A stretch of 24,644 nt of DNA from a virus. The translations under genes were made by a program, and so were the position numbers. This document shows, one piece after another, positions 595 to 22,530 of this stretch; position 1 is the stretch's first letter; each line of letters begins with the position of its first letter. The DNA is taken from the UHGV virus genome UHGV-2020843; one strand, 5' to 3'. The notes beneath the pieces are model-generated. The model was not told where the DNA came from and did not search any database. It worked only from the letters and a program-made list of their open reading frames with translations.

Positions 595-625
595 ATAAAA
601 AAACCCGCTCGGAGGCGGGTTTAAT
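595..625 (-). terminator. Intrinsic terminator on minus strand (tR'-like position, downstream of Q)
   Basis: Minus-strand reading gives AAACCCGC-CTCCGA-GCGGGTTT followed by TTTTT; lies about 80-110 nt after the Q stop codon. Confidence 0.55.
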
Positions 626-704
626 TTCGTGCAGGCGCAATAACCTACGATTTGAAGCATACACGACAAGTTCGGACAAAATCAAGTTTTAAGTCGCTAA
701 TATG

Positions 705-2365: not shown

Positions 2366-3339
2366 TACGCAGCCGCCTTTTTCTTGAAGAAAACCACCTC
2401 ACGAACCTGATCGCCGTTCATGAGCATGTCGTTAAAATCCCCGTTATCCGGGTAGTAGATGCTGATTTTTTCCAGGTCATTTTTTGCCAGTAAGTTGGCA
2501 TGGGCGCATTCCGTGGCCGCAGCCAATCCAGTGGCGCTGTTTACGTCTCGATCTGCGAAAATAATCAAATTTTTCACACCTGCAGGAACACGGAATTTCT
2601 TCATGAATCCGCTGGTCATGGTGGCCCAGGTGTTAACGTTGTATAGCTGCTTGCAGGAAAGAGCCGTTTCGATACCCTCGGCAATTCCGAGGGTCGTCGC
2701 TACCGGGAACATGCGAATAGCGACGGAACGGGCATGATCCAGATAGCTTTCGTCCTGAAGAGATTTCTGGCGCTTCGCTCCGGCAGAATCCCTTAGTTGG
2801 GCTTTCTGATTGCCGTCCAGTAAGGTTCTGTGCAGATAGCAAAGCTCGCCTTTGTCGTCAGTTGCGAGTGAATACAGACACTGGTAAACCTTACCGCCGT
2901 AGCGTTGTTTATCATTGAACTTCACTGCCTCTTGTGGGAGCTGATAAATTCCCCTGGCCTGCAGATATTCCGCCCCGGTAGTTCCTTTCAGGTTGACCAG
3001 TTTCGAAAATTTGGACAGAACCCGATCACGGGCGCTTACGGCATCTGAAGTGCGCGGAAACGCTTCGCGGGTAAAGTTATTACCAATCAGCTGGTCTATT
3101 TCCCTGCAAATTTCATTGAATGGCTTCCCTTGCGTCAGAGTGACAAGCTTCATTCCGTCACCGCTGCCGCAGGTACAGATCCATGTTCCCCGGCCGTCCC
3201 GGTCATCAATACGCAGCTTTCCCCGCGCACCACATACCGGACATTCGCCTTTAAAGTGATTTCTGGCATTAATGGGAGGTAACCCGAAGTGCTCAAAAAT
3301 CATTGCCCATTGACCTTTTGCCGCTTCTGCCGTCTTCAT
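2365..3339 (-). CDS. DNA primase (zinc-ribbon plus TOPRIM domain, phage/P4-type)
   Basis: N-terminal CPVCGARGK...WICTCGSGDG zinc-binding motif followed by TOPRIM-like IAEGIETALS and FADRD acidic motifs; ATGA overlap with helicase stop. Confidence 0.8.
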   Translation of the reverse strand: MKTAEAAKGQWAMIFEHFGLPPINARNHFKGECPVCGARGKLRIDDRDGRGTWICTCGSGDGMKLVTLTQGKPFNEICREIDQLIGNNFTREAFPRTSDAVSARDRVLSKFSKLVNLKGTTGAEYLQARGIYQLPQEAVKFNDKQRYGGKVYQCLYSLATDDKGELCYLHRTLLDGNQKAQLRDSAGAKRQKSLQDESYLDHARSVAIRMFPVATTLGIAEGIETALSCKQLYNVNTWATMTSGFMKKFRVPAGVKNLIIFADRDVNSATGLAAATECAHANLLAKNDLEKISIYYPDNGDFNDMLMNGDQVREVVFFKKKAAA

Positions 3340-4952
3340 GCTCGTTTTCCTAACTGCTGTTTGATATCGCTAATCGCTTTCTGTGCTTGCTGTACTGAGG
3401 ATGGGGCTGCCGTGCCTGATGCCTCCTGCAGGCGCTTGGCCTTCTCCTGCCCTTTCGCATACGCAATCAATTTGTGCCGGATGAAATTAGAGACAGTCGG
3501 GGTGATCTCCATCGGAAAATCGCTTAACCCGTTAGGCCACTCGTCAAACCGTTCGCGAAAGGTATTTGCGCACCAGCCATCGCTGACGGGCTTTTTCCCC
3601 TGCGATACGCGCTGACGCTGATAGAATTTGATCTGACTCCACCAGGCCTGTTTCTCTGCCTTAGTGGGCTGATGCTGGTTTTTACCCAGCTTTTTGAGTT
3701 TGCGGCCGGTGTCGGTATCGACGTCCTCACCGCCCAGCGGCTTATGCCCACATTTCGGGCATACATAGACGCCAGCTGGCTTCATGTAATGGCATTGAGA
3801 GCATTCGTGTGGCAGTTTTTCGGCCCGTTCCTCAGCTGCGCGGCGCGCGCTTTCCTCCATGCCGTCAGACTTACCGGGAAGATCGTCGTACTCGATTGAA
3901 TCCGGATAACCCAAACGGTGCACGGTACCGCTGTGATCGAAGATGAGGCAGGACTCTTTACCCGGTGCGGTGCGCAGGCCACGCCCGAGCGCCTGCAGCC
4001 AGCGAATTTCGCTTTTTGTTGGCCTGGCGTAGATGATGCAACGAACGTCACTATCGAAGCCGGCCACCAGAACGCCCACACTAACGATGATTTTCGTTGC
4101 ACCGGTTTCAAAGCGGTGAATGATGGTCTGGCGTTCATCCACTGGAGTGTCGGCGGTCATGACCTCAGCGTTAACACCCGCCAGGTTAAACTGAATTGTC
4201 AGGTAATTGGCGTGGGCTACGTTGACGCAGAAAGCGATGGTAGGCAGATCCCGGCCATTCTCCAGCCAGTTCTGTACGATGTCGCCCACCAGCGTAGAGC
4301 CGCACATGATTTCAGCCAGCTGCGTTTCGTTGTAATCGCTGCCGTACTCAAGCGATGCTTTGGTTTTAACACCTTTCAGATCCGGCTTAGTTGGCGCGTA
4401 AAATTCATATTTACTCAGATCGCCACGCTGAATTAACTCGCCGATGGTGGTGGGCTTAATCAGTCGGTCATAGTATTTGCCCAGGAACGGGGAAAACGGA
4501 GTACCCGACAGGCCAATCACCTTTACGCCTTTGCCGCGTAGACGGTCGATATCCTTCAGGATGCGTTTTTTACGCAGGTGTGCTTCGTCGATAATCAGCA
4601 GATCGATATTTTCAGGAAAAACACGACGAATAAGCGTATCGGCGCTGGCAATCTGAATTTTCCGGTCCGGATCGTAGTTCGGGTGATCCGCCCAGATATA
4701 ACCGATTTCATCCCCCGGTAATCCATACTCCACGAACCGATTAGCCGTCTGACCGATCAGGATGGTGTACGGTGCACAGAACAGGACGCGCATACCACGG
4801 CTGACAAACCCGGCAACGATGAAGGCCGCCAAACCCGTTTTACCGCTACCGGTTGGCGAATACACCATGAAGGTGTCGTTTGCCTTCCAGTCACGGCGCA
4901 ACATGTTTAGCGCTCGTTCCTGTGCAAAATTCGGCGTGATCGTCAGCTCCAT
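3336..4952 (-). CDS. Phage SF2 DNA helicase (DEAD/DEAH-box type)
   Basis: Walker A SPTGSGKT, Walker B IIDEAHL, C-terminal Cys4 motif CSQCH...CPKCGH; 538 aa; GGGGG ribosome-binding site upstream. Confidence 0.8.
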   Translation of the reverse strand: MELTITPNFAQERALNMLRRDWKANDTFMVYSPTGSGKTGLAAFIVAGFVSRGMRVLFCAPYTILIGQTANRFVEYGLPGDEIGYIWADHPNYDPDRKIQIASADTLIRRVFPENIDLLIIDEAHLRKKRILKDIDRLRGKGVKVIGLSGTPFSPFLGKYYDRLIKPTTIGELIQRGDLSKYEFYAPTKPDLKGVKTKASLEYGSDYNETQLAEIMCGSTLVGDIVQNWLENGRDLPTIAFCVNVAHANYLTIQFNLAGVNAEVMTADTPVDERQTIIHRFETGATKIIVSVGVLVAGFDSDVRCIIYARPTKSEIRWLQALGRGLRTAPGKESCLIFDHSGTVHRLGYPDSIEYDDLPGKSDGMEESARRAAEERAEKLPHECSQCHYMKPAGVYVCPKCGHKPLGGEDVDTDTGRKLKKLGKNQHQPTKAEKQAWWSQIKFYQRQRVSQGKKPVSDGWCANTFRERFDEWPNGLSDFPMEITPTVSNFIRHKLIAYAKGQEKAKRLQEASGTAAPSSVQQAQKAISDIKQQLGKRA

Positions 4953-5380
4953 TGTGCTGCCCCCGTGCTGATGAGATAATAATTTTGTGATGTGGTTTTC
5001 ATGGATTCCCCCTCACATGGCTGGTGGCCTCCCCAAAGGCTGCCAGCCTCCCTTCTGATTCAGCTCCTCTGAAAAAATCACTCTTCCAGGAAGAACCCTT
5101 TTCGTTTCTCAGCGCCTGAGCGCTTTGTACTACCTTGCTGATACAGGCGTTTTTTAAATTGCGCCCTTAAGACAGTGATCTACCTAACCAATGGATCTCT
5201 CCTGTTGGAAAAGACCCTATTCCTGCCCCTACACCCAATCCCCCCTTACCCCCCTTTCCCTCTTCCCCATAAAAACGTACTACTTCCCTAGTACATATGA
5301 GGAGTTGGGTCAGTTGGTTGCCAACCTGAACAGGCACCTTTAAGCCTGCTTCTGTTCGGGTACCTTTAAACCCGAAACAA

Positions 5381-5674
5381 TCAGGATCGCGATTGCGTTC
5401 CAGCCAGGGGAGGTTCGGCGGTATACCCCTGTAAAGCTCTGCCCTGATTTCTCACAAACAGGCGAAGCCTTGTGTTTGCTTCATGCCTTGCCCGGTTCTC
5501 CTTGCGGTACGAAACGGGTTCGGCCTCGAACGTCTCCTGATACACTGCTGCATAACGCTGCATGGCTTTTTGTTTGGCGGCCATACTGAGTGACTGCAGT
5601 TGCTCACCTATCCACTGACTGTCCGCAAGGCAAAACACAGCTGGCATCTCTAACTGCTGAAATGCCTGTGACAT
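5381..5674 (-). CDS. Hypothetical protein (97 aa) immediately downstream of cro (cII-like position)
   Basis: In-frame ATG at 5674 lies 1 nt after the cro stop; the open frame extends to 5776 (131 aa) but that would overlap cro by about 100 nt. No recognisable similarity to lambda CII. Confidence 0.4.
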   Translation of the reverse strand: MSQAFQQLEMPAVFCLADSQWIGEQLQSLSMAAKQKAMQRYAAVYQETFEAEPVSYRKENRARHEANTRLRLFVRNQGRALQGYTAEPPLAGTQSRS

Positions 5675-5675
5675 A

Positions 5676-5906
5676 TCAGATATCCCCGGAAGGTCGTGGG
5701 AATACCGTTGGGATATCAGGCCGTAATTCGTATGGCTTAACCTCCCCGTTTGTAGCCATTGAGATAGCGACTGCATTTTGAGGGGAAATCTTCTGATGGT
5801 TGTTCAGCCACTTCCAAACAGCCCCCTGAGTGACACCGATGGCTCTAGCCAACGCAGATTGGCCCCCTGCCAATCTCACTGCTTTCTGAATAGCGTTTTC
5901 TGACAT
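5676..5906 (-). CDS. cro: Cro/YdaS-like helix-turn-helix regulator
   Basis: 76-aa ORF with HTH-like segment QSALARAIGVTQGAVWKW, divergent from the cI-like repressor across an operator-containing intergenic region. Confidence 0.7.
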   Translation of the reverse strand: MSENAIQKAVRLAGGQSALARAIGVTQGAVWKWLNNHQKISPQNAVAISMATNGEVKPYELRPDIPTVFPRPSGDI

Positions 5907-5922
5907 ATTAGCGCCCTTAAAA

Positions 5923-6010
5923 ATACTTTAGGATTTGGATGATATTACCATAGTATTAATTTAGCAAGAATACTCTAGTGTTGAATGGAAAAAGCTTTTG
6001 TACTAAATTA
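5923..6010. promoter_or_regulatory. Immunity switch: three operator sites (5923-5936, 5945-5958, 5970-5983) with divergent PR-like and PRM-like promoters
   Basis: Three 14-bp sites each 2 mismatches from palindrome AATACTATAGTATT, spaced 22-25 bp. Minus strand -35 TTGCTA (5963-5968) and -10 TATCAT (5940-5945), 17-bp spacer, for cro. Plus strand -35 TTGAAT (5982-5987) and -10 TAAATT (6005-6010), 17-bp spacer, for cI. Confidence 0.5.
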
Positions 6011-6039
6011 ATCCGATCGTATTAACCAGAGGCAAAAAC

Positions 6040-6747
6040 ATGAGTGGAACGACTTTTTCGGACCGGCTAAGAGACAGCATGCAGAAGGCTGGGCTGACCC
6101 AAAGCCAGTTAGCTGAAGCAGTCGGAGTGTCACAGGGGGCAATTCAGAAACTTGTATCTGGTAAGGCAAAGTCGACAACTAAGCTTGTTCAGATAGCTAA
6201 TGTCCTTGGTGTTCGCCCTGAATGGTTAAGCGAAGGCGTTGGTGCGATCCGTAAATCAGATGATTTCCCTCCAGAAGAAAAGTGGAGCAAAGTCGAGACC
6301 TGGGATAGCAACACGCCTTTAGAATCTGATGAAGTGGAAGTCCCATTCCTTAAAGATATTGAGTTTGCATGCGGTAGCGGCAGAGTTATGGAAGAAGATT
6401 ACAACGGTTATAAACTGAGGTTTTCGAAGTCTACCCTGAGAAGAGTTGGAGCAAGCACAGATGGTTCAGGCATTATCTGTTTCCCGGCTGCCGGGAACAG
6501 TATGGAACCACTCATACCAGACGGTACAACAGTGGCTGTTAACATCGAAGACAAAAAAATCGTTGATGGAAAGATTTACGCGATCAATCAGGAAGGGTGG
6601 AAGCGGATCAAACTCCTATACCGGACAGGCCCGGATGAGTTGACTATCCGTAGCTATAACGCAGAAGAGTACCCTGATGAGGTAGTGAAGATGTCCAGCG
6701 TAGAGGTCGTTGGTAGAGTGTTTTGGACTTCTACAGTTTGGAACTAA
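6040..6747 (+). CDS. cI: CI-type phage repressor (N-terminal HTH, C-terminal S24/LexA-like peptidase domain)
   Basis: 235 aa; HTH LTQSQLAEAVGVSQGAIQKL; C-terminal AGNSMEP Ser motif and downstream Lys (KRIK), typical of autocleaving LexA/CI repressors; GAGG ribosome-binding site upstream. Confidence 0.85.
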   Translation: MSGTTFSDRLRDSMQKAGLTQSQLAEAVGVSQGAIQKLVSGKAKSTTKLVQIANVLGVRPEWLSEGVGAIRKSDDFPPEEKWSKVETWDSNTPLESDEVEVPFLKDIEFACGSGRVMEEDYNGYKLRFSKSTLRRVGASTDGSGIICFPAAGNSMEPLIPDGTTVAVNIEDKKIVDGKIYAINQEGWKRIKLLYRTGPDELTIRSYNAEEYPDEVVKMSSVEVVGRVFWTSTVWN

Positions 6748-6748
6748 G

Positions 6749-6770
6749 CCGGGGAAACCCGGTTTTTTTT
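6749..6770 (+). terminator. Intrinsic terminator after cI
   Basis: CCGGG-GAAA-CCCGG hairpin followed by T8, immediately after the cI stop codon. Confidence 0.65.
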
Positions 6771-6828
6771 GCGAAAAAAAATAAAATCCATTATTTTCAT
6801 TAGGTTACATGAAAAAGAAAATAAGATT

Positions 6829-6869
6829 AATACTATAGTATTGACGCGGGATTAATCCTCCCCTATTCT
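6829..6869 (+). promoter_or_regulatory. PL-like early promoter with perfect palindromic operator
   Basis: Perfect 14-bp palindrome AATACTATAGTATT (6829-6842) overlapping -35 TTGACG (6841-6846); 17-bp spacer; -10 TATTCT (6864-6869); about 30 bp upstream of ORF 6901. Confidence 0.5.
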
Positions 6870-6900
6870 CATCTCATCGGCAAACAACGGAGCCAGTGAG

Positions 6901-7221
6901 ATGACGACCAATACGACAATCAAAAAATTATATCAGCTTGTTGATATTCCAGATTTTCGCTACAGCAAAGATAGTTCAAGTATTGATTATGGTGATATTG
7001 CATCAGATTGCGATACTAAAACTGTTTCTATCTTTGAAGCCATTAACCATATCAGCTTAAATATTTTTTCCATTGCTGAAGATAAAGAAATCAGCAAAGA
7101 AAAGATATTAAACCTTTCTTGTATCATCGCTGACCTTGCAGAAATTGGAATGGCAACGAATAAAATTTCTCAAGCTGCCTCATATCTTTCTGGATTAAAG
7201 GATGGCAATCATGGCGCATGA
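6901..7221 (+). CDS. Hypothetical small acidic protein (106 aa), first gene after the PL-like promoter
   Basis: ORF in AT-rich segment directly downstream of predicted early promoter; no recognisable motif. Confidence 0.5.
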   Translation: MTTNTTIKKLYQLVDIPDFRYSKDSSSIDYGDIASDCDTKTVSIFEAINHISLNIFSIAEDKEISKEKILNLSCIIADLAEIGMATNKISQAASYLSGLKDGNHGA

Positions 7222-7405
7222 ATTTTCATTAGAACAAGCGAAAGAGAAAGCATATCAGGCAGAAATAATCTGCAAAATGATTGAGTTATACCCCAACAAA
7301 ATGGACTGTTCTGAAATCGAGGCCATTGCAGCATTATTAAGTAAGTTAACCAGTGATGTTTGTGCATGGTTAATTGAAGAGCAAGCTATTAGATCCAACG
7401 CTTAG
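7211..7405 (+). CDS. Hypothetical small acidic protein (about 65 aa)
   Basis: ORF overlapping the previous gene's end (alternative start at 7202); AT-rich. Confidence 0.45.
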   Translation: MAHEFSLEQAKEKAYQAEIICKMIELYPNKMDCSEIEAIAALLSKLTSDVCAWLIEEQAIRSNA

Positions 7406-7578
7406 TTTTTTTAGATTCCTAAATAAATAACAGCTTTATTGCTGAGGGGATTCCATACACTTTTTTAGGAAAAAACATGATAAACATCAACGCCTTTAAT
7501 ACTGCTAAGTTATTTTGTTCAGCCGGTTACTGGGATATTGCGAATTTATATCTCAGGAAAGCATACGGGAGATAAATC

Positions 7579-7803
7579 ATGTCAACACAAGATCGCCAAG
7601 ACGTGCAAGGTGTGAATATTAAAGCTGAACAACTTAACTTCCTTATGCAAACAATTCACGCTCACCATAAGGATTTTGACTGCCATCAACTTGATGGCCT
7701 TTTAGGTCTGGCTTATGACCTTGCCGGGTCGGTATATAGCTGGCCCGAGGCAGAGGAAAGGATCGTTTTAGAAAATGAAGATGCACAAAGAAAGGTGTAT
7801 TAA
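7579..7803 (+). CDS. Hypothetical small acidic protein (74 aa)
   Basis: ORF with GGGAG ribosome-binding site; stop TAA immediately followed by the next ATG. Confidence 0.5.
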   Translation: MSTQDRQDVQGVNIKAEQLNFLMQTIHAHHKDFDCHQLDGLLGLAYDLAGSVYSWPEAEERIVLENEDAQRKVY

Positions 7804-8169
7804 ATGGATAATTTAACCAATACGTATCGCCGAAGAATTTTAAAAGCTGCGTTATTACGCCACCAGCGTAAAACCGGAAGCACCTGCATCATTATTAATA
7901 TGCCTAAAGGTGGAATAAACACAGTCGAATTAACAGAAATACTGCTTGATGGTTTGTTGAGACGATTCGAAAAGCTGGCTCTCAGTGAATACGGGAATAT
8001 CGACGGTGTAAAAGCCATCAGAGGAATTTACAGCAACGCCGTAGATGTGAATGGCAGCGGTGAGTTCCTGACAGAAAGCGGAAAGGCATTAATCGACGAT
8101 CTCATTGCTGAGCTGGTCGAATTTGCTAAGAAACAAAAATCAGTCACAGCGGAGACAAGCCATGAGTGA
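7804..8169 (+). CDS. Hypothetical protein (121 aa) with arginine-rich N-terminus
   Basis: ORF begins MDNLTNTYRRRILKAALLRHQRK; contiguous with flanking ORFs. Confidence 0.5.
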   Translation: MDNLTNTYRRRILKAALLRHQRKTGSTCIIINMPKGGINTVELTEILLDGLLRRFEKLALSEYGNIDGVKAIRGIYSNAVDVNGSGEFLTESGKALIDDLIAELVEFAKKQKSVTAETSHE

Positions 8170-8374
8170 TCAGACACCAATTATCACGCACGAACCAGTA
8201 AATATCGTGCTGACAATCGAGAACGGGAAAGTTATCCACGCGCGCCCGGTTCAGAACGGCGAGGTTACAGCATCGCTGGAGACTTTTTTATGGATGGCTG
8301 AACAAGCCGGTTACACGATCACCCCACCTGCAGGAGAGAAGGACAATGGCCCTGACAGCGATACGAATTCCTGA
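8162..8374 (+). CDS. Hypothetical small acidic protein (70 aa); candidate antitoxin partner of the following ORF
   Basis: ATG at 8162 with GGAG ribosome-binding site 7 nt upstream; overlaps upstream stop and overlaps downstream ORF by 29 nt. Confidence 0.45.
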   Translation: MSDQTPIITHEPVNIVLTIENGKVIHARPVQNGEVTASLETFLWMAEQAGYTITPPAGEKDNGPDSDTNS

Positions 8375-8567
8375 GTGGGTGCACCTGCAGGCGGTCCATG
8401 TCCTCCGCCAGTTCAGAGCCAGGCGGATTCATCCCTGCCGTATGCACGGCTCCGGAAACCTGAGCCTGAGGGTTAATCGCCGCTGGCGGCTGCTGTCCCG
8501 AGACGGCGGCCATAACTGGGAAGTAATGAGCCATGAACGATACAGCAAACTGAAGGACAGAAAATGA
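8346..8567 (+). CDS. Candidate RelE/ParE/HigB-superfamily toxin-like protein (73 aa)
   Basis: Segment GSGNLSLRVNRRWRLLSRDGGHNWEVMSHERY resembles the RelE/HigB core (recalled E. coli HigB GGNELRVVAMVFF...YIREVMTHKEYD); strong ribosome-binding site GGAGAGAAGGA; GC-rich relative to neighbours. Confidence 0.4.
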   Translation: MALTAIRIPEWVHLQAVHVLRQFRARRIHPCRMHGSGNLSLRVNRRWRLLSRDGGHNWEVMSHERYSKLKDRK

Positions 8568-8665
8568 AAGCGCTTTTCCTTTCCCTGCTGTTTGGCCTGT
8601 TATTGGTGGCCGTCGTTTTCGGCGCGCTGATTGAGTACAAATTTTTGATGGATTTCGGGAGTTGA
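8564..8665 (+). CDS. Small hydrophobic peptide (33 aa), likely membrane-inserted
   Basis: MKALFLSLLFGLLLVAVVFGALIEYKFLMDFGS; ATGA overlap with upstream stop; AAGGA ribosome-binding site. Confidence 0.4.
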   Translation: MKALFLSLLFGLLLVAVVFGALIEYKFLMDFGS

Positions 8666-8667
8666 TT

Positions 8668-8880
8668 ATGAAAACGGGACAACAACCAGCTTACCCATGC
8701 CCTCGCACTGATTCTCCTCAGGGTATGACATATCGCCAGTATCTTGTAAGTCAGCTCGCGCCCGTAATCGCTGCTCAGTTCTTCGAAAGTAGCGCATGGA
8801 CCGACTACGACGACATGGGCGGCTCTCTGATGATGATGGTCGACAGCATTATTGAAGCTGAAAAGGAGACAGCACAATGA
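8668..8880 (+). CDS. Hypothetical small acidic protein (70 aa)
   Basis: ATG at 8668 with GGGAG ribosome-binding site; the ORF track extends it to a TTG at 8662. Confidence 0.45.
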   Translation: MKTGQQPAYPCPRTDSPQGMTYRQYLVSQLAPVIAAQFFESSAWTDYDDMGGSLMMMVDSIIEAEKETAQ

Positions 8881-9275
8881 GCAAATCAGCAAAAGAGCTT
8901 TATACCGTACCTGAATGGATGCGCCCATACCTTACGTTATTCCAAAACACTGGAGGTAATGACGTTGAGGATCTGCTGCACGATGAAGACACCAATATGT
9001 TCGCAAATAGCATTCGGTACATGTTGATCGTGTCCGCTCGTTCACAATTCAGATTGCTGATGGATATGTATAAAAATGGGCAGATTATCGAGCTTGAAAC
9101 GATGAAAACAGACCCTGTTGGTGAAGATTATCAGTCAGCGATCGACATCTTGCGCGACAGAGCTGCTCGCGAACTCGATGGTGGTTTTCGCTCACATCAC
9201 AACGCCCTGATTTATGCAGCTAATGAACTGGAAAATGCCCAGGCCTTCGGGCGGGAGGTCAGCCATGAGTCTTGA
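8877..9275 (+). CDS. Hypothetical protein (132 aa)
   Basis: ORF with ATGA overlap to the upstream stop; no recognisable motif. Confidence 0.5.
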   Translation: MSKSAKELYTVPEWMRPYLTLFQNTGGNDVEDLLHDEDTNMFANSIRYMLIVSARSQFRLLMDMYKNGQIIELETMKTDPVGEDYQSAIDILRDRAARELDGGFRSHHNALIYAANELENAQAFGREVSHES

Positions 9276-9474
9276 TTGCGTACCCCTTTCTACGTACTGC
9301 AGGGACGCGGGGGAAACGGTAGAAGCCGTTAACAAACGGATACAAAGGGGGTTATGGAAGGAGGGAGTACATGTATTAAAAGTCGATGGCGTTAAAGAAC
9401 GCTGGATTGACTTAACGGAGGTTTCAAAGTGGGCAAGAAAGAACAAGGATCATTATCTCTCCCAAGAGGAGTAA
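9265..9474 (+). CDS. xis: Excisionase-like protein
   Basis: About 69 aa, immediately upstream of and overlapping the integrase; GGGAGG ribosome-binding site; small basic DNA-binding-like protein in the canonical xis position. Confidence 0.55.
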   Translation: MSLDCVPLSTYCRDAGETVEAVNKRIQRGLWKEGVHVLKVDGVKERWIDLTEVSKWARKNKDHYLSQEE

Positions 9475-10601
9475 CCATCCGCCAGCATAAAACTGGCGAC
9501 ACTCTGGTTATCACTTTCACATACAAAGGGGTTCTGTGCCGGGAGCCCCTCTCCAAAATGGAAGCAAACGCGCGCGGTGTGAAGTACGCCGAGCGCCTGC
9601 TCGGGGAGATACAGAACCAGATCGTCAGTGGCACCTTTGAATATGCGAAATATTTCCCCAACTCCAAAAAGCTGGAGCTATTCGGGGTGGTGAAGAAAAC
9701 CAAAAACATAAAGTCCTACCTGGACGAGTACCTCAAAATCTGCCAGAACCGCAACCTGTCCCCGTCGACTATAAATGGTTATGAAAAATGCCTGTCGGCA
9801 CTGTCAGCTCTGCATAAACTCCACGTGTCAGAACTGACGCCAGCGGTCCTTAAAAACTGGATAGCCAGCCGGAAAACAAAGCTGAAAACGACCAGGAATA
9901 ACCTTTCGTTTCTGCGCAGCGCAATCGATGAAGCTGTTACGGATGGCCTGCTGACCATTAACCCGGTAACCCTCGTCAGCGCCAGCCGGTACCACGTGAT
10001 CGACAGCAGCCCGAGCGCCGACGATTACGAGGTTGACCCGTTCACGCCAGCGGAGACCCTCGCCATTTACCAGAACTGCAGGTACCCGGAATGGGAAAAC
10101 CTGTTCCGCTTTGCTTTCAATACCGGTCTGCGGAGCTCCGAACTGTGCGCGCTGCGCTGGCCTGATCTCGACACCATCGCGAACACAGCCCACGTTCAGG
10201 CGGCCAGTGTCGTAGGGGTACTTAAAGGCACCAAGACAAAAGCCGGTACCCGCAAGGTGGAGCTGAACAGTGAGGCGCTGGCGGCCCTGCAGGCGCAGAA
10301 GCAATACACCTTTATGAAAAGTGAGTTCATATTCAGCGATCCGAAAACGGGAGAACCCTGGGCGAACGCCGACGCTATCCGTAAAAAAGCATGGGTGCCG
10401 ACCCTGAAAAAAGCTGGCGTGCGCTACCGTAACCCGTACCAGACGCGGCACACATTCGCCACCAAGCATATTAGCCAGGGCGTTAACCTCTTCTGGCTTG
10501 CCGGACAGATGGGCCACAAAGGGCCGGAAATGATATTCCGCAACTACGGTAAATACCTGGCTGAATATGACGGTAAAACCGCGATTTCAACCGCGCTGTA
10601 G
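9429..10601 (+). CDS. int: Tyrosine site-specific integrase (lambda Int-like)
   Basis: 390 aa; C-terminal catalytic region with RHTFATKH, GHKG and YGKY (R-H-R-Y type residues); located next to the attachment-site core. Confidence 0.85.
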   Translation: MGKKEQGSLSLPRGVTIRQHKTGDTLVITFTYKGVLCREPLSKMEANARGVKYAERLLGEIQNQIVSGTFEYAKYFPNSKKLELFGVVKKTKNIKSYLDEYLKICQNRNLSPSTINGYEKCLSALSALHKLHVSELTPAVLKNWIASRKTKLKTTRNNLSFLRSAIDEAVTDGLLTINPVTLVSASRYHVIDSSPSADDYEVDPFTPAETLAIYQNCRYPEWENLFRFAFNTGLRSSELCALRWPDLDTIANTAHVQAASVVGVLKGTKTKAGTRKVELNSEALAALQAQKQYTFMKSEFIFSDPKTGEPWANADAIRKKAWVPTLKKAGVRYRNPYQTRHTFATKHISQGVNLFWLAGQMGHKGPEMIFRNYGKYLAEYDGKTAISTAL

Positions 10602-10724
10602 CGGGGTAAATATTTCAAAATGTTGGACAGAATCAGGACGTTAGACAGACCTCAATATGCACGTAAAATGCACCTGAGGTATATCACAGTGAAAGAATTG
10701 TTTATTTTCAATGAGTTAAATGCC

Positions 10725-10760
10725 TTTCGGACGCGAGTTCAACTCCCGCCAGCTCCACCA
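10725..10760 (+). other. Attachment-site core: 36-nt copy of the 3' end of tmRNA (ssrA) ending in CCA, not a complete gene
   Basis: TTTCGGACGCGAGTTCAACTCCCGCCAGCTCCACCA matches the recalled 3' end of E. coli ssrA with one mismatch (A for G in the T-arm stem); sequence upstream does not resemble the ssrA body. Confidence 0.7.
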
Positions 10761-16155: not shown

Positions 16156-18345
16156 TCAATGTCGTCTAATACCGAGCGCGCGCCTGATAAACATCTGATC
16201 AACGTACCCAATCGATCTACTCCAAATGTCCTGAGTATCCCGAAGATACTGGCTCAACTCATCCACATCAGCCTCGTCGGAAAATTCCAGCAAGTCTACC
16301 AGTCGGTGTAACGTCTGAATGGGAATGCCAATCTCTTCTAAGGCATTGACACCTGGTGGTAGATGGAAACTTTCGAACGCCAATTTGACATGTGTGTAAT
16401 CGACTTTGCTGCGTATACCACGCTTTACAGCGTGGTGTTTAACTACATCCTCCATCAAGCTGAGCACCTTAGGTAGGGTATAGCCGAAGGTATTGGTTAT
16501 GAGCTTCAAATCATTGTTGAGGGCAATGGAAAGAGTACGTTTCTCCCCTTCAGAAATCCACTGTCGTGCATAATCGATCTGATTTTTCAGATATTCCGAA
16601 TAACTTTCAGCACTTAAATAGCCGGCAAGTTTTGCGATCATGACATCCGTAGGCTTAACAGGGACCCCATTGCGACTGAACGTATGGGGAACCAGTCTGG
16701 CAATGATCTTTGCAAAGGTCTTGAGGAAGTTTGTCGCGGGAGTCCAGTGAAACACTAACGAGGAAAATTCGTTATCGTCCATCATCTCGAACATGCTTTG
16801 CAGCATTTCGAACTGCTCGACACGGAAGTACGAATGCTTCTTCACAAGGTCGATGGAAACACGGTCGTTTATGAAAACCTCATCAAAGCGATCCTGTGAA
16901 AACTCGGACAAGTGGTCTGGTTGAACGCTGGCTAACAGGTTGATTGGGGTATCAATGCCCTGAATACCGAGCGGAATATCCACCTCTTGATTGAGATTGT
17001 CTTCCGGGATTTCCTCCAGGCAAAAGATTTTGCCGACGAAGTGAACGCCCATGCGCCCGGCGCGACCTTTGATGTTCCCATGGGTGAATTTGTCAATGCT
17101 GCGAGTTCCATCGCGGTTGTCGTAGATCACAACGTTCTTAGCGATAGTGTTGACTCCTTCAATGATCGTGGAGGTGCAGAGCAAAAAGCGCAGTTTTCCA
17201 GCATTGAATTGGTCGGCAGTGTATTGCTGCAGTGCCCTCGGTAGCGCGCCAAAATGCAAGCCAATACCGTTTCTAAGGGCGACTGTGTAATCCCAGTCGG
17301 CATCGAACTCTTCGCTGACCCAGTCGACATGGGGATTCTCAGTCGGAGTGCCATGCCCAAGCCTGATCAGCTCGCGCGCCACCAGGCCCGCAACAGTTGG
17401 TGACTTGCAATAAATGATCGTTGCGTCGACACATGCGTGCGCGATTTCCCCCAGCGCTTTGAGCTTGGCTTTGTCGTCATTCGCTTTGATGCCGAACGTC
17501 TTAACATCTAGCGCGACTGTATTGAAGTCGGTAGAAACGAAAGTATGCGGATATCCAAGTTTTTCGAGACCGCGAATGCTGTTAACGAACGGTCCCGTCA
17601 GGTAAAACTGCCTGGAGACCTTAAGCAGTTTGCTTAACGCAATGTTGAGCTCGATGACTCGTTCGTCTTGATGATCAATGTCCCCGCTTTTCAGTTGTCG
17701 GAACGCCAACTTGTAAAACTCGTCAATGACGAAGAGGTCAATGTCGACGATGTCGTCACGCTCGTTCACTCGCTCCTGAGTTAACACATAAACAGCCTGA
17801 TCGGAATGGCACACTTGGGAACTGTGGTGGATGATCTGATATCGGTCACCGAATCGCTCTTGCAGTCGGCGACGGGTTTCGTCGGCAAGAGCCACGGTTG
17901 GAACAACCAGAACAAGCCGTTTCAAAGTTCCCATGCCGAGCAATGAATCGACGATTGCACTTTTGCCCATGCTTGTAGGTGCACTCAGCACCACGTTTTG
18001 ACCAGACTTGAGCAGATCGAATATGTGGAACTGCATTGAGTGGAAAACATAACCATCCGAGAATGGCGTCCGGTATAGCTCAAGCACCCTCAGGTCATCC
18101 GGTGTCAGGCTGGTGAACTCCTTTTTGAGATACGGGAACAAACCTGATTTTCTCACCATATTTTTCAAAATTGTGGTGTGCTCGGAAAACCGCTCGCGCG
18201 AATCGAGAGCTCGCACGATCAAGTCCCGTCCCAAGTCATACGAAACAGGGTTAGACAACAGCTTGTTAACCGCAAACAGATAATTGAACGATGAGAAGTC
18301 CTCACCCTGCAGGCTATGTTTCGCCTGTTCATAGATCTCTGTCAT
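16156..18345 (-). CDS. yfjK: SF2 helicase YfjK (AbpB), Hachiman-type defence helicase HamB homologue
   Basis: 729 aa with Walker A LSAPTSMGKS and DEAD/DExH-like VIDEFYKL; ATGA overlap with the upstream yfjL stop. Confidence 0.85.
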   Translation of the reverse strand: MTEIYEQAKHSLQGEDFSSFNYLFAVNKLLSNPVSYDLGRDLIVRALDSRERFSEHTTILKNMVRKSGLFPYLKKEFTSLTPDDLRVLELYRTPFSDGYVFHSMQFHIFDLLKSGQNVVLSAPTSMGKSAIVDSLLGMGTLKRLVLVVPTVALADETRRRLQERFGDRYQIIHHSSQVCHSDQAVYVLTQERVNERDDIVDIDLFVIDEFYKLAFRQLKSGDIDHQDERVIELNIALSKLLKVSRQFYLTGPFVNSIRGLEKLGYPHTFVSTDFNTVALDVKTFGIKANDDKAKLKALGEIAHACVDATIIYCKSPTVAGLVARELIRLGHGTPTENPHVDWVSEEFDADWDYTVALRNGIGLHFGALPRALQQYTADQFNAGKLRFLLCTSTIIEGVNTIAKNVVIYDNRDGTRSIDKFTHGNIKGRAGRMGVHFVGKIFCLEEIPEDNLNQEVDIPLGIQGIDTPINLLASVQPDHLSEFSQDRFDEVFINDRVSIDLVKKHSYFRVEQFEMLQSMFEMMDDNEFSSLVFHWTPATNFLKTFAKIIARLVPHTFSRNGVPVKPTDVMIAKLAGYLSAESYSEYLKNQIDYARQWISEGEKRTLSIALNNDLKLITNTFGYTLPKVLSLMEDVVKHHAVKRGIRSKVDYTHVKLAFESFHLPPGVNALEEIGIPIQTLHRLVDLLEFSDEADVDELSQYLRDTQDIWSRSIGYVDQMFIRRALGIRRH

Positions 18346-19958
18346 ACGACCTCTCTCACCTTCTCATCAACTAATTGGGTTAACCGCTCAAGACTCGGGG
18401 CTGGATAAATGAATACGTGGATGCAAAGATTCGCAAACGGCGAATCCTCGATGAGGTCAGCCGCGAATTTTTCGAACAGCACCGCTGTTTCTTTCTCCAG
18501 GTCATCCTCGAACCCCGGCGTTTCAGGCTCGGTTAGTAGATTAGAGTCGTAGCCCACGAACAGAACAAACGTGAAACGATCGAGGTGAGCATCGAAAGGT
18601 TGGCTGCCATCAAGAATTTCGTCAATGTCGTGGCGAAGCAGGTAGTTATCGTCTTTAATGTCGAGGATTTTTTTGCGCGCGGTATCGATGCAATCCGAAA
18701 TGTCCTCGTACAACTGATCCCGTATCTCCGGCAATCTGACGGCAATGTTAATATCAGTCACCAACTCGCTGAAGCCAATCCAAAGCTGATCACCTTCTGG
18801 ATCGCGGCGAACGATATGCACGTTTTCAAGAATTTTTTCGGCCCCTGCTTTTTCCACGTATAGCATGCAAGGAATAGGCTGGCTTTCGTGGTGCTGCCGG
18901 ATCGTTGCGTGCAACAGCACTCGACCCAAAAATTCGCTGACGTCATGGAGCGATTTGAAGACGGAATTCTTTAGTCGTTCTCGCTTTTCAATGAATGTCA
19001 GTTTATGAATATCAGACATTTCTTTTGGTCGGAGAAAAACCTCATCCAACCATTGACAGACGTTATCCGCGATGTGCTTGTAGCGGTATTTCTTAAGTGA
19101 GTACTGCTGATGTAGAACCTGGCCTTTACGCTTAGCGCAGACCGAAGCCATAGGCGCTCTAAATGGCGTAAGGATGTGGGGTAAGTCCCGTTTGACGTAG
19201 ATTTTGCGGCCTGACCGAGATTGGTCATCTTCGACACGCTGCTTGAACCACTCAAGTAGGTCTGGTCGTAAGTAGGACTTGTCATCAGCACTGTGAATGC
19301 GTCGAGAATGCTCGCCCTTGCGCGTCACAGTATCAAGGATGCGGCACCAAATGTCTTCGGCGACGGTTTCGGAACTGAGAATGACCCCATGTAGATCTTG
19401 GGAGGCCAGCCGTATGTTCTTGATCCCTAGAAGTTCCAGTTCGCGCAGGGATGAAAACACTTCCCATGTAGCCGCATCGATCCAATCTGAAACGCTTATA
19501 CCTGAGTCTGTTAAAAAATTGTCTGTGCGTTTGTTGAGGTCATCGATGAGTTCCTGTCGACCTGGCTTATCTAGTCGGGCGTTTGGGCTGATCGTCAAGT
19601 ACTCAAGGGTTTTGTTGACCTTTTCCTCTGTGACGATGGAGTACCTACGTCCAAGGGACAGGTCAGACTCACACTGCATTGATTTGTGCAAAATTGAACT
19701 GCAGGGGATCGTCTTTTTATCAGCACCTTTTGAATTCTGAACGATGTCCGAAATGTTCCAACGTGTTTTGCCGGTGCTTTTTACCTGAACGAAGTCGATG
19801 TATCCATCAGATACAATGTCGATATCGTCTGTGACCTCGCAGCGCACACTGCGGATAGTCTTGTCACGAAGCATTCGGGTGACATGGTAAGCGGCTACGC
19901 AGTCCTGAAATAAGAAACCGTGCTTGGCGGCTACTCCGCCTGAATCGTTCGACTCCAT
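18342..19958 (-). CDS. yfjL: YfjL (AbpA), Hachiman-type defence effector HamA homologue (DUF1837-type)
   Basis: 538-aa ORF immediately upstream of and translationally coupled to the helicase, in the conserved CP4-57 position. Confidence 0.8.
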   Translation of the reverse strand: MESNDSGGVAAKHGFLFQDCVAAYHVTRMLRDKTIRSVRCEVTDDIDIVSDGYIDFVQVKSTGKTRWNISDIVQNSKGADKKTIPCSSILHKSMQCESDLSLGRRYSIVTEEKVNKTLEYLTISPNARLDKPGRQELIDDLNKRTDNFLTDSGISVSDWIDAATWEVFSSLRELELLGIKNIRLASQDLHGVILSSETVAEDIWCRILDTVTRKGEHSRRIHSADDKSYLRPDLLEWFKQRVEDDQSRSGRKIYVKRDLPHILTPFRAPMASVCAKRKGQVLHQQYSLKKYRYKHIADNVCQWLDEVFLRPKEMSDIHKLTFIEKRERLKNSVFKSLHDVSEFLGRVLLHATIRQHHESQPIPCMLYVEKAGAEKILENVHIVRRDPEGDQLWIGFSELVTDINIAVRLPEIRDQLYEDISDCIDTARKKILDIKDDNYLLRHDIDEILDGSQPFDAHLDRFTFVLFVGYDSNLLTEPETPGFEDDLEKETAVLFEKFAADLIEDSPFANLCIHVFIYPAPSLERLTQLVDEKVREVV

Positions 19959-20217
19959 TTAGACATCCGTGACAATTTTGCGAAAATTAAGGAGATGTTA
20001 TGACACAGTCCAATCGGATCACTGCATCATCACCAGTGATCTAAATACTTCACAGCCATTCTCGGTCGCAGGTATCAAGCTTTTCAGGATTCCACAAATA
20101 TTGTAACCCTGACGTCTAATTTGGTTATATAACATACTGCCCCAACTAACGTAAGGTAGGCACAGCCTTAATCAAGGTTTTGGTTTTCAAATAGTTCAGA
20201 GCTGAGACCGCCAACCG

Positions 20218-20284
20218 CACTATGGCACTATGGCACTATGGCACTATGGCACTATGGCACTATGGCACTATGGCACTATGGCAC
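20218..20284. repeat. Perfect tandem octamer repeat (TATGGCAC) x 8, intergenic
   Basis: Eight uninterrupted copies of TATGGCAC (20221-20284) preceded by a partial CAC; lies between the yfjM stop and the yfjL start. Confidence 0.95.
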
Positions 20285-20333
20285 CGCCAGCGATTGTAAT
20301 CACACTTGATATTATAAAACACAGTTGCACGCA

Positions 20334-20597
20334 TTATTTCCTGGTTGGTAGGGTCATATCTCGATGCTCTTTGAGCAATGTCAACATCGCGTGTTCATGG
20401 CTTTCTATATTGTTGATGCCTTGCCCATCCGGACCCCACTCCTTATAGCTCATCATGATGGCTTGTTTTGGGCTCTCTGCTCGTTCTGTTTCGACGTAGA
20501 ATTTTTTCTTGTCTGCTGGCGAATAATTACTAAGTATCGAGTTGCTGCTTGGTGAGATCAGGAAGAGGTTACCGAAACGATGGACATCATCCCCCAT
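20334..20597 (-). CDS. yfjM: Small uncharacterised island protein YfjM
   Basis: 87-aa ORF in the CP4-57 position between yfjL and rnlA. Confidence 0.6.
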
Positions 20598-20738
20598 TTT
20601 GTGGACTGCCCCCCCGGTAGACGATCCTGCCCTATAGTTGGAGTGCCCCCTATTCAGGTGGCTAAATTTAGCAAATCAATACACTTCAGGGGGGTATTAT
20701 TGTAGAGTTTCCCCATATGTTTCTATGGGATCCAGGAA

Positions 20739-21812
20739 ATGACAATCAGGAGTTACAAAAACTTAAATCTGGTCAGGGCAAATATCGAGACTGAATCCAG
20801 ACAATTCATTGAAAATAAAAACTATTCAATCCAATCAATTGGTCCTATGCCAGGGTCAAGGGCTGGGCTTCGGGTCGTATTTACCAGACCAGGGGTTAAC
20901 TTGGCAACTGTGGACATTTTTTATAACGGGGACGGTTCGACTACAATTCAATATCTCACTGGAGCCAATCGTTCTCTGGGCCAAGAGTTAGCGGATCATC
21001 TTTTTGAAACCATCAATCCTGCTGAATTTGAGCAGGTAAATATGGTACTGCAAGGATTTGTAGAGACAAGCGTTCTACCTGTACTTGAGCTATCAGCAGA
21101 TGAATCGCATATAGAGTTCAGAGAACACTCTCGTAACGCTCATACCGTAGTGTGGAAAATTATTTCCACCAGCTATCAGGACGAATTGACTGTGAGCCTG
21201 CATATCACAACAGGTAAGCTCCAGATTCAGGGCCGACCGCTGTCATGTTACAGAGTTTTCACGTTTAACTTGGCAGCCCTGCTTGATTTACAGGGTTTGG
21301 AGAAAGTGCTAATCCGCCAGGAGGATGGTAAAGCTAATATTGTTCAACAGGAGGTTGCCCGCACTTACTTGCAGACTGTAATGGCCGATGCTTACCCGCA
21401 TCTCCACGTGACTGCCGAAAAATTGCTCGTTTCAGGGCTATGTGTTAAACTCGCCGCCCCTGATTTGCCTGACTACTGTATGTTACTTTATCCTGAACTA
21501 CGCACCATTGAAGGTGTCTTAAAAAGTAAGATGAGTGGGTTAGGCATGCCAGTACAGCAGCCGGCAGGTTTTGGAACTTACTTTGATAAACCTGCTGCTC
21601 ATTACATTCTGAAACCGCAATTTGCAGCTACTCTTAGACCGGAACAGATTAACATCATCAGCACAGCCTATACTTTTTTTAATGTGGAACGTCATTCTCT
21701 GTTCCACATGGAAACTGTGGTCGATGCCAGCCGTATGATTTCTGATATGGCCCGGTTGATGGGTAAAGCCACTAGAGCGTGGGGAATAATCAAGGACTTA
21801 TATATTGTTTGA
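20739..21812 (+). CDS. rnlA: RnlA toxin (RNase LS endoribonuclease)
   Basis: 357 aa starting MTIRSYKNLNLVRANIETESRQFIENKNYS; followed by overlapping antitoxin gene. Confidence 0.85.
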   Translation: MTIRSYKNLNLVRANIETESRQFIENKNYSIQSIGPMPGSRAGLRVVFTRPGVNLATVDIFYNGDGSTTIQYLTGANRSLGQELADHLFETINPAEFEQVNMVLQGFVETSVLPVLELSADESHIEFREHSRNAHTVVWKIISTSYQDELTVSLHITTGKLQIQGRPLSCYRVFTFNLAALLDLQGLEKVLIRQEDGKANIVQQEVARTYLQTVMADAYPHLHVTAEKLLVSGLCVKLAAPDLPDYCMLLYPELRTIEGVLKSKMSGLGMPVQQPAGFGTYFDKPAAHYILKPQFAATLRPEQINIISTAYTFFNVERHSLFHMETVVDASRMISDMARLMGKATRAWGIIKDLYIV

Positions 21813-22176
21813 AATCACCGGAATTAACGTCTCAGGGGCTCTAAAAGCTGTCGTTATGGCGACCGGCTTCGAGAACCCTTTGTCCTCAGTTAATGAAATT
21901 GAGACGAAACTTTCTGCCCTACTGGGTAGTGAGACCACTGGTGAAATCCTTTTTGACCTCTTGTGCGCTAACGGTCCAGAGTGGAACCGCTTCGTTACGC
22001 TGGAAATGAAATATGGCCGGATCATGCTGGATACGGCCAAAATTATTGATGAGCAGGACGTTCCGACACATATCCTGAGCAAACTGACTTTTACTTTACG
22101 TAATCATCCTGAGTACCTAGAAGCCTCTGTTTTGTCTCCCGATGATGTACGCCAAGTCCTGTCAATGGATTTTTGA
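21805..22176 (+). CDS. rnlB: RnlB antitoxin
   Basis: 123-aa ORF overlapping the rnlA 3' end by 8 nt; canonical toxin-then-antitoxin order of the rnlAB module. Confidence 0.8.
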   Translation: MFEITGINVSGALKAVVMATGFENPLSSVNEIETKLSALLGSETTGEILFDLLCANGPEWNRFVTLEMKYGRIMLDTAKIIDEQDVPTHILSKLTFTLRNHPEYLEASVLSPDDVRQVLSMDF

Positions 22177-22478
22177 AACTCTTCTTTCTAAACGAACCAG
22201 TATAGAATTCGCCCTTTTGGCATGATATTAACTTGTCCAATATGATCAAATAGCATTAACCCCCCCTCACAACGTCCTGCATAGGGAACACGTTTTCCCC
22301 TGTGCACCCACGACTAAATTTCCCCCCCTTTAAACTTCTCAATAATGTCACCAATTTTCTGGAAATCCTATGATGCCTTTCCCGGTAAATGGTGCTGTGA
22401 GTTCAGAAAGATTCTGCAATCTATGTGCATTGAAAAAATCTTCAGATAGATATCATTCTCCTGAACAATCCGATGAAC

Positions 22479-22511
22479 GGCAGAACCTCGCGGTTCTGCC
22501 GTTTTTGTTTT
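22479..22511 (+). terminator. Intrinsic terminator-like hairpin in the leader immediately upstream of yfjP
   Basis: GGCAGAACC-TCGC-GGTTCTGCC followed by GTTTTTGTTTT; ends 10 nt before the yfjP ribosome-binding site. Confidence 0.6.
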
Positions 22512-22530
22512 ACTTTTCAGAGGAGTGGTG

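What the first reader, a model, noticed from the sequence alone, without database searches (positions are those of the whole stretch)
20739..22176. RnlA-RnlB toxin-antitoxin / anti-phage module adjacent to Hachiman
RnlA (RNase LS) and its antitoxin RnlB form a known module that restricts T4 lacking dmd. With the Hachiman pair about 0.8 kb away this makes a small defence cluster inside the island. Known biology, noted because co-location with the repeat and Hachiman suggests a defence islet.
Basis: established knowledge. Interest (0 to 1): 0.4.

Follow-up and report, generated by a model that had tools for sequence, protein, structure and literature searches.

The report
E. coli K-12 RnlA-RnlB toxin-antitoxin
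This is the textbook E. coli K-12 rnlA-rnlB toxin-antitoxin pair, base-for-base identical to the reference, sitting in the CP4-57 cryptic prophage 780 bp from the known AbpAB (Hachiman) anti-phage genes; it is real and intact but entirely ordinary.

Summary
Window 20739-21812 (+) is rnlA (357 aa) and 21805-22176 (+) is rnlB (123 aa, TTG start, 8-nt overlap).

Both proteins are 100% identical over their full length to the crystallised E. coli K-12 RnlA and RnlB (PDB 6y2p, 4i8o). The 1438-nt DNA is an exact match to MG1655. All three RnlA domains, the Rx4-6H HEPN motif and the four residues shown to be essential (R255, E258, R318, H323) are present. There are no frameshifts or truncations.

The neighbours are abpA/abpB (yfjL/yfjK), a published Hachiman type I variant. 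The abpA start codon lies 780 bp from the rnlA start codon, and the two are transcribed divergently. Between them are a decayed GmrSD fragment (yfjM), an IS3-end remnant and a variable 8-bp repeat.

Both systems, and their location in cryptic prophage CP4-57, are already in the literature. The adjacency looks like island cargo rather than a functional unit. RnlAB relatives in 27 other loci, and a paralogous rnlAB in 73 E. coli genomes, have no AbpAB nearby; they sit beside other defence systems or at prophage ends.

Verdict: already known, low interest.

The parts
20739..21812 (+). rnlA: RNase LS / RnlA toxin, 357 aa. Domains are NTD, NRD (two TBP-like domains) and a C-terminal HEPN/Dmd-binding domain. 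The Rx4-6H motif is R318-H323.
   Evidence: 100% identical to PDB 6y2p_A and 4i8o_A. Pfam RnlA_toxin_N 1.3e-27, RnlA_toxin 1.4e-25, RnlA-toxin_DBD 1.2e-44, HEPN_RnaseLS 3e-11, all above gathering score. R255, E258, R318 and H323 present and invariant across 5 divergent homologues.
21805..22176 (+). rnlB: labile antitoxin, 123 aa, TTG start overlapping the rnlA stop by 8 nt. An AAGGA Shine-Dalgarno-like motif at 21792-21796 lies inside rnlA.
   Evidence: 100% identical to PDB 6y2p_C residues 1-123. Pfam RnlB_antitoxin 9.1e-29. Start and stop codons read directly. Same coordinates in the RefSeq annotation.
20598..20738 (+). rnlA upstream region, expected to hold the operon promoter (inferred; not mapped here).
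   Evidence: Sequence read. The literature describes an external rnlA promoter, IscR in Otsuka 2010 (title seen) and an internal rnlB promoter about 280 nt upstream of rnlB (PMC5535158). The consensus promoter scan found sites at no more than chance frequency and none at these positions.
22475..22504 (+). 13-bp G+C-rich hairpin followed by a T-run. It is a candidate intrinsic terminator about 300 nt after the rnlB stop and just before the yfjP start (22531).
   Evidence: Terminator-like scan; sequence. Function is inferred only.
18342..19958 (-). Neighbour (context): abpA/yfjL, a HamA-type effector with an N-terminal Cap4 nuclease and a DUF1837/HamA domain.
   Evidence: Pfam Cap4_nuclease 1e-55 and HamA 3.7e-41. 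PADLOC HamA1 2e-265. Full-length PDB match to 8zue_A 'Anti-bacteriophage protein A', E=0.
16156..18345 (-). Neighbour (context): abpB/yfjK, a HamB-type Ski2-like helicase. It overlaps abpA by 4 nt.
   Evidence: PADLOC HamB1 4.6e-220. Pfam DEAD and Helicase_C. RefSeq annotation abpB.
20334..20597 (-). Spacer element (context): yfjM, 87 aa, an internal fragment of a GmrSD C-terminal (DUF1524) nuclease domain. It is a decayed type IV restriction gene.
   Evidence: Pfam GmrSD_C 6.3e-06, residues 4-56 against profile positions 77-126 of 138. RefSeq annotation.
20217..20284 (.). Spacer element (context): (GCACTATG)x8.5 tandem repeat inside an IS3-family end remnant (about 20128-20350).
   Evidence: TRF 100% matches. 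8.5 units here against 6.5 in MG1655. Flanks match IS3-family ends at about 80-83%.

Best explanation
This is the E. coli K-12 rnlA-rnlB type II toxin-antitoxin operon carried by the CP4-57 cryptic prophage.

RnlA (RNase LS) is a three-domain HEPN endoribonuclease. In uninfected cells it is held inactive by RnlB, which binds the canonical HEPN dimer and blocks the active site formed by R255, E258, R318 and H323. RNase HI assists this inhibition.

When a T4-like phage shuts off host gene expression, the unstable RnlB is no longer replenished. Free RnlA, stimulated by RNase HI, then degrades phage late mRNAs and aborts the infection. Wild-type T4 escapes because its Dmd protein binds RnlA directly as a substitute antitoxin.

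Shown here: sequence identity, intact domains and catalytic residues, operon anatomy and genomic context. Taken from the literature on this identical sequence: every biochemical and phage step. Inferred: that the allele is expressed in this particular strain.

The AbpAB/Hachiman pair next to it is an independent DNA-targeting system. The two are co-resident island cargo.
For: Full-length 100% protein identity to the crystallised RnlA and RnlB. An exact 1438-nt DNA match to MG1655, extending unbroken to the window end. All family Pfam domains score above gathering thresholds.

The four residues shown by alanine mutagenesis to be essential (PMC8266594) are present and invariant in homologues down to 19% identity. 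The toxin-then-antitoxin order with RnlB immediately downstream is conserved in most of the 27 related loci.

Mechanism: PMC5308261, PMC8266594, PMC3920263. T4 dmd becomes essential only on K-12 that expresses native rnlAB (bioRxiv 10.1101/2025.11.20.689424). Location in CP4-57.
Against: Nothing in the sequence argues against it. Expression in this strain was not measured. The simple promoter scan did not pick out either published promoter, and its hit count was at chance level. PADLOC-DB v2.0.0 and NCBIfam HMMs returned no hit for RnlA or RnlB. This appears to reflect missing models, not divergence, because Pfam and PDB match decisively.
Confidence: 0.97

Rival explanations
1. RnlAB and the adjacent AbpAB/Hachiman pair form one functionally coupled defence unit, co-regulated or synergistic, rather than two independent systems.
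For: They lie 780 bp apart, start codon to start codon (19958 and 20739), in the same island. The abpBA-yfjM-rnlAB block is about 100% conserved in two other E. coli islands whose integrase is only 46-51% identical (L008, L010). One published Hachiman subfamily is modulated by a type II TA, PezAT in Streptococcus (PMC13064477).
Against: The two are divergently transcribed and separated by a gene fragment (yfjM), an IS3-end remnant and a repeat. That pattern indicates decay and mosaic assembly, not an operon. None of the 27 RnlAB loci from other species has an AbpA or AbpB homologue within +-10 kb by tblastn. Flanks of the first 17-18 of these loci (set A2) instead carry DISARM, Druantia, Mza, DRT and R-M hits. 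The 73 E. coli genomes with a paralogous rnlAB have it at the end of a lambdoid prophage with no Hachiman. Each system works alone when cloned or deleted (PMC11914072).
Confidence: 0.05
2. The main selected role of rnlAB here is addiction or stabilisation of the mobile element (post-segregational killing on loss of CP4-57). Phage defence would be a side effect.
For: All family members seen are on mobile DNA: CP4-57, the ends of ssrA-integrated lambdoid prophages, 3.3-kb pOSAK1-like plasmids carrying lsoAB, and large plasmids next to recombinases or integrases. A labile antitoxin with a stable toxin is the classic addiction design (PMC7167474).
Against: A dedicated phage counter-antitoxin (T4 Dmd) and the conditional essentiality of dmd on rnlAB+ hosts show direct selection at the phage interface. 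The homologues' neighbours are enriched in defence systems. The two roles are not mutually exclusive.
Confidence: 0.15
3. The pair is a decayed or inactive copy (pseudogene), as is common in cryptic prophages.
For: The immediate neighbour yfjM is a gene fragment, and the region carries an IS remnant.
Against: Both ORFs are full length and identical to the functional reference at every nucleotide.
Confidence: 0.01

Closest known systems
E. coli K-12 RnlA-RnlB (RNase LS toxin-antitoxin; PDB 4i8o, 6y2p; Koga et al. 2011)
   Same: Everything tested: 357/357 and 123/123 residues, 1438/1438 nucleotides, gene order, the 8-nt overlap and the flanking genes yfjM and yfjP.
   Different: Nothing within the module. 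Nearby, the window has 8.5 rather than 6.5 copies of an 8-bp repeat 455 bp upstream of rnlA. It also carries an extra lambdoid prophage in tandem at the ssrA attachment site.
LsoA-LsoB of plasmid pOSAK1 (E. coli O157:H7; PDB 5hy3)
   Same: Same three-domain HEPN toxin followed by the antitoxin. The catalytic R/E/R/H residues are conserved. It is also inhibited by T4 Dmd.
   Different: Only about 19-20% identity to the RnlA here. It is carried on a 3.3-kb mobilisable plasmid rather than a chromosomal island.
Prophage-borne RnlA/RnlB-family pair in 73 complete E. coli genomes (e.g. strains AZ148, N1193)
   Same: About 72% (RnlA) and 68% (RnlB) amino-acid identity, with the same overlap architecture. 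It is also linked to the ssrA integration hot spot.
   Different: It sits at the tail-fibre end of a lambdoid prophage with no Hachiman or yfjM next to it.
AbpAB = Hachiman type I (I-B) of E. coli K-12 (the neighbour, not the finding itself)
   Same: Also an anti-phage system in CP4-57, and identical to the published proteins.
   Different: A DNA nuclease plus helicase that senses DNA damage or phage SSB, with no toxin-antitoxin logic. It is unrelated in sequence and mechanism to RnlAB.

Membership tests
RnlA/LsoA HEPN RNase toxin family | Three-domain architecture: N-terminal TBP-like domain, repeated TBP-like domain, C-terminal HEPN (Dmd-binding) domain | tested here: met
   Pfam PF19417 (6-88), PF15935 (98-183), PF19034 (203-325) and PF18869, all above gathering score.
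RnlA/LsoA HEPN RNase toxin family | Rx4-6H HEPN motif plus conserved R255/E258, essential for RNase activity | tested here: met
   R318-HSLF-H323, R255 and E258 are present and invariant in a 5-member alignment down to 19% identity. Their essentiality comes from PMC8266594.
RnlA/LsoA HEPN RNase toxin family | Sequence identity to the reference E. coli K-12 RnlA | tested here: met
   357/357 identical to 6y2p_A, E=1.7e-239. DNA is an exact match.
RnlAB type II toxin-antitoxin system | Cognate RnlB-family antitoxin gene immediately downstream of the toxin ('reverse' TA order) | tested here: met
   rnlB at 21805-22176 overlaps the rnlA stop by 8 nt. Pfam RnlB_antitoxin 9.1e-29. 123/123 identical to 6y2p_C.
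RnlAB type II toxin-antitoxin system | Toxin arrests growth; antitoxin is unstable and neutralises it by direct binding | not testable with these tools
   Shown in the literature for the identical proteins (PMC5308261, PMC8266594).
RnlAB type II toxin-antitoxin system | Restricts T4 dmd- and is countered by T4 Dmd | not testable with these tools
   From the literature for the K-12 allele. A plating assay would be needed for this strain.
Hachiman (neighbouring abpA/abpB) | HamA (DUF1837) effector paired with a HamB Ski2-like helicase in one operon | tested here: met
   PADLOC HamA1 2e-265 and HamB1 4.6e-220. Pfam HamA 3.7e-41. The genes overlap by 4 nt. PDB 8zue_A.
Hachiman (neighbouring abpA/abpB) | Catalytically active PD-(D/E)xK site within the DUF1837 domain (canonical type I-A) | not tested
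   Tuck 2024 reports that AbpA's HamA-like domain has inactive residues and that the fused Cap4 nuclease is the effector. Residues were not re-examined here. It is therefore best called a Hachiman variant (type I-B).

The most novel reading that the evidence does not exclude
The most novel reading not excluded is crosstalk between the two adjacent systems. AbpAB/Hachiman senses DNA damage and degrades DNA. RnlAB is triggered by loss of host transcription and is modulated by RNase HI. Hachiman-mediated genome damage could collapse RnlB synthesis and so fire RnlA as a second, RNA-level layer. The conserved abpBA-yfjM-rnlAB block would then be selected as a two-tier unit. A lesser variant: the hypervariable 8-bp repeat upstream of abpA tunes expression of one or both systems.
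Probability: 0.05. Interest if true: 0.45.

Novelty: already known. Interest (0 to 1): 0.08.

Why it matters
As a discovery it matters little. RnlAB is one of the best-characterised anti-phage toxin-antitoxin systems, with crystal structures, a known phage counter-protein and genetics at native expression. Its residence in CP4-57 alongside AbpAB/Hachiman is stated in published strain descriptions (PMC11990801).

The practical value is annotation. It fixes the window as an E. coli chromosome carrying a K-12-type CP4-57 island. It also tells anyone plating phages on this strain that T4-like phages lacking dmd will be restricted. The comparative checks show that the RnlAB-Hachiman adjacency is island-specific cargo, not a recurrent pairing.

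Tried and rejected
- PADLOC-DB v2.0.0 and NCBIfam HMM scans of RnlA and RnlB gave no hits. I attribute this to the libraries apparently lacking models for them, because Pfam and PDB match decisively.
- tblastn of RnlA against the phage collection gave no match, so there is no evidence of RnlA on sequenced free phages.
- Rfam and ARAGORN on the whole window found nothing. ssrA is not in the window and there is no known RNA element near rnlAB.
- The consensus promoter scan gave hit counts at chance level (6 against 5.2 +- 2.4) and did not recover the published external or internal promoters. I did not use it as evidence.
- Koga et al. 2011 (PMC3018318) is not held in the library. Statements on RnlB lability are therefore cited from later papers and reviews. 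The ClpXP/Lon dependence and the roughly 2-min half-life that I recall were not verified, so I left them out of the evidence.
- A conserved RnlAB-Hachiman linkage was tested and rejected.
- The PADLOC neighbourhood summary covers only the first 113 of 194 flanking ORFs and has no random-genome control. It shows which defence systems occur nearby, not a measured enrichment.

Full report
**Observation.** The mechanical ORF list contains a 357-aa ORF at 20739..21812 (+, ATG..TGA). It also contains a 123-aa ORF at 21805..22176 (+, TTG..TGA) that overlaps the first by 8 nt.

phmmer against all PDB chains returns 6y2p_A/4i8o_A ('mRNA endoribonuclease toxin LS' / 'toxin RnlA') at E=1.7e-239, with every one of 357 residues identical. 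It returns 6y2p_C ('Antitoxin RnlB') at E=5.9e-78, with 123/123 identical. At DNA level the 1438-nt segment is an exact substring of E. coli K-12 MG1655. Exact identity continues from window 20233 to the window end at 24644. RefSeq annotates the same coordinates as rnlA and rnlB.

**Anatomy.** Pfam finds all three RnlA domains above gathering score: RnlA_toxin_N at 6-88, RnlA_toxin at 98-183 and RnlA-toxin_DBD at 203-325, together with HEPN_RnaseLS. It finds RnlB_antitoxin in the second ORF. The HEPN Rx4-6H motif is R318-HSLF-H323.

R255 and E258 are also present. These four residues were shown by alanine substitution to be required for RNase activity and toxicity (PMC8266594). They are invariant in my alignment of RnlA with four homologues at 72%, 42%, 24% and 19% identity, including LsoA. 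An AAGGA motif 8 nt upstream of the rnlB TTG lies inside the end of rnlA. A 13-bp G+C-rich hairpin with a T-run at 22475-22504 lies about 300 nt after rnlB and just before the yfjP start; it is a candidate terminator. The simple promoter scan was at chance level and is not used. The literature places one promoter upstream of rnlA and an independent one about 280 nt upstream of rnlB (PMC5535158; PMC7167474).

**Context.** Window 10725..24644 matches the K-12 CP4-57 cryptic prophage at 99.8-99.9%. The gene order is intA, yfjH, alpA, yfjI, yfjJ, abpB (yfjK), abpA (yfjL), yfjM, rnlA, rnlB, yfjP, yfjQ.

- abpA (18342..19958, -) has Cap4_nuclease and HamA domains. It scores 2e-265 on a PADLOC HamA1 model and matches PDB 8zue_A over its full length.
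- abpB (16156..18345, -) scores 4.6e-220 on HamB1.
- Tuck et al. [quoted passage not shown] PMC11914072 calls it type I-B Hachiman of prophage CP4-57. Sasaki et al. 2023 were more cautious.
- The abpA start codon (19958) is 780 bp from the rnlA start codon (20739), and the two are transcribed divergently.

That 780-bp spacer is not empty:

- (GCACTATG)x8.5 at 20217-20284.
- Flanks resembling IS3-family ends at about 80-83%.
- yfjM (20334..20597, -), an 87-aa internal fragment of a GmrSD C-terminal nuclease domain.

The region is therefore a small cluster of two live defence systems and one dead one, inside an island.

**Mechanism.** These statements come from the literature on this identical sequence and are not re-tested here. 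RnlA is kept inactive by RnlB, which binds the canonical HEPN dimer and occludes the active site (PMC8266594). RNase HI is needed for efficient inhibition by RnlB, and it stimulates free RnlA (PMC5308261; PMC5535158). T4 infection shuts off host expression, so the unstable RnlB disappears. RnlA then degrades late T4 mRNAs, and T4 dmd- cannot propagate. T4 Dmd binds RnlA as a substitute antitoxin. A 2025 transposon screen confirmed that dmd is essential for T4 only on K-12 expressing its native rnlAB.

**Is the co-location meaningful?** I tested whether RnlAB and Hachiman travel together.

- Among 5426 complete E. coli genomes, 363 carry this allele at >=99% identity. Those listed are mostly K-12 laboratory derivatives, always with the same neighbours.
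- Another 73 genomes carry a paralogous pair, about 73% identical in DNA and 72%/68% in protein. It lies at the tail-fibre end of a lambdoid prophage integrated at ssrA, with no Hachiman beside it.
- A scan of one genome per species returned 33 RnlA loci. Outside E. coli, 27 loci were usable. tblastn finds RnlB directly downstream in most of them, but no AbpA or AbpB within +-10 kb in any.
- A PADLOC scan of 113 flanking ORFs from the first 17-18 of these loci (set A2) hit DISARM (DrmA/D/MI), Druantia (DruA/D/E), Mza, DRT reverse transcriptases and R-M enzymes.
- Two plasmid homologues sit next to a DNA methyltransferase with a recombinase, and next to a CBASS phospholipase.

RnlAB therefore behaves like ordinary defence-island cargo with changing partners. 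The Hachiman partner is specific to the CP4-57 island family. Within that family the abpBA-yfjM-rnlAB block is conserved even where the integrase has diverged to 46-51% identity (L008, L010). This is the only hint of joint inheritance. The decayed gene and IS remnant between the two systems argue against an operon-like unit.

**Comparison with what is known, and novelty.** The module is the reference member of its family, so every sequence-testable membership criterion is met. The functional criteria can only be cited. The presence of both RnlAB and Hachiman/AbpAB in K-12 cryptic prophages is stated explicitly in PMC11990801. CP4-57 is named as the location of each in PMC7167474, PMC3920263 and PMC11914072. 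Novelty is therefore 'already known', and interest is low.

**What distinguishes this window from MG1655.** Two differences were found, both outside the finding.

- The octanucleotide repeat has 8.5 units here, against 6.5 in MG1655. The record spans imply 7.5 units in NEB 5-alpha/ER2796 and about 10.5 in MB06021.
- Window 1..~10700 is the early region and integrase of a lambdoid prophage: Q antiterminator, primase, helicase, S24 repressor and int at 9429..10601. It is separated from CP4-57 by a 36-nt copy of the ssrA 3' end at 10725-10760, 35/36 identical. This is a tandem integration at ssrA, similar in layout to K-12 derivatives that acquired a prophage in the mouse gut (L002).

**Limits.** No expression or phenotype data exist for this strain. 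Koga 2011 could not be read. The neighbourhood survey lacks a random control and covers 113 of 194 flanking ORFs.

Noticed in passing
window 20217-20284 (flanks about 20128-20350): Perfect octanucleotide tandem repeat (GCACTATG)x8.5. MG1655 and three other loci have 6.5 units. Record spans imply 7.5 and about 10.5 units in other K-12-type strains, so it is hypervariable. It lies 260-325 bp upstream of the abpA start codon and 50 bp past the yfjM stop, inside sequence resembling IS3-family element ends (about 80-83%). An effect on Hachiman expression is untested.
   Followed up: partly
window 20334-20597 (-): yfjM (87 aa) is an internal fragment of a GmrSD C-terminal nuclease domain (Pfam profile positions 77-126 of 138). 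It is a decayed type IV restriction gene wedged between Hachiman and rnlAB, with its 3' end abutting the IS3-like remnant.
   Followed up: partly
window 10725-10760: A 36-nt copy of the 3' end of ssrA (35/36 identical) marks the junction between a lambdoid prophage on the left and CP4-57 on the right. This is a tandem integration at the tmRNA gene. ssrA itself is outside the window; ARAGORN and Rfam find none.
   Followed up: yes
window 1-10700: Early region of a lambdoid prophage: antiterminator Q (705-1508, -), toprim primase (2365-3339, -), DEAD-box helicase (3336-4952, -), S24/HTH repressor (6040-6747, +) and Arm-type integrase (9429-10601, +). There is a low-GC patch (37%) at about 6500-8000. 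No complete E. coli genome covers more than about 76% of it.
   Followed up: partly
L003 10001-11426; L004 9890-11426: A second rnlAB-family pair (about 72%/68% amino-acid identity) occurs in 73 complete E. coli genomes at the tail-fibre end of ssrA-integrated lambdoid prophages, next to a recombinase pseudogene. Both E. coli rnlAB lineages are thus tied to the ssrA hot spot.
   Followed up: partly
L008 and L010 (E. coli ECGI0523, ECDA1023), about 340-1480: CP4-57-like islands with an abpBA-yfjM-rnlAB block about 100% identical, but with an integrase only 46-51% identical to K-12 IntA. This is a mosaic island with a swapped integration module.
   Followed up: no
window 22177-22530: 350-nt untranslated stretch between rnlB and yfjP. 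It has two C-runs (CCCCCCC) and ends in a strong hairpin with a T-run at 22475-22504, immediately before the yfjP ribosome-binding site. Similar C/G-runs occur upstream of rnlA (20606-20700). No Rfam family matches.
   Followed up: no
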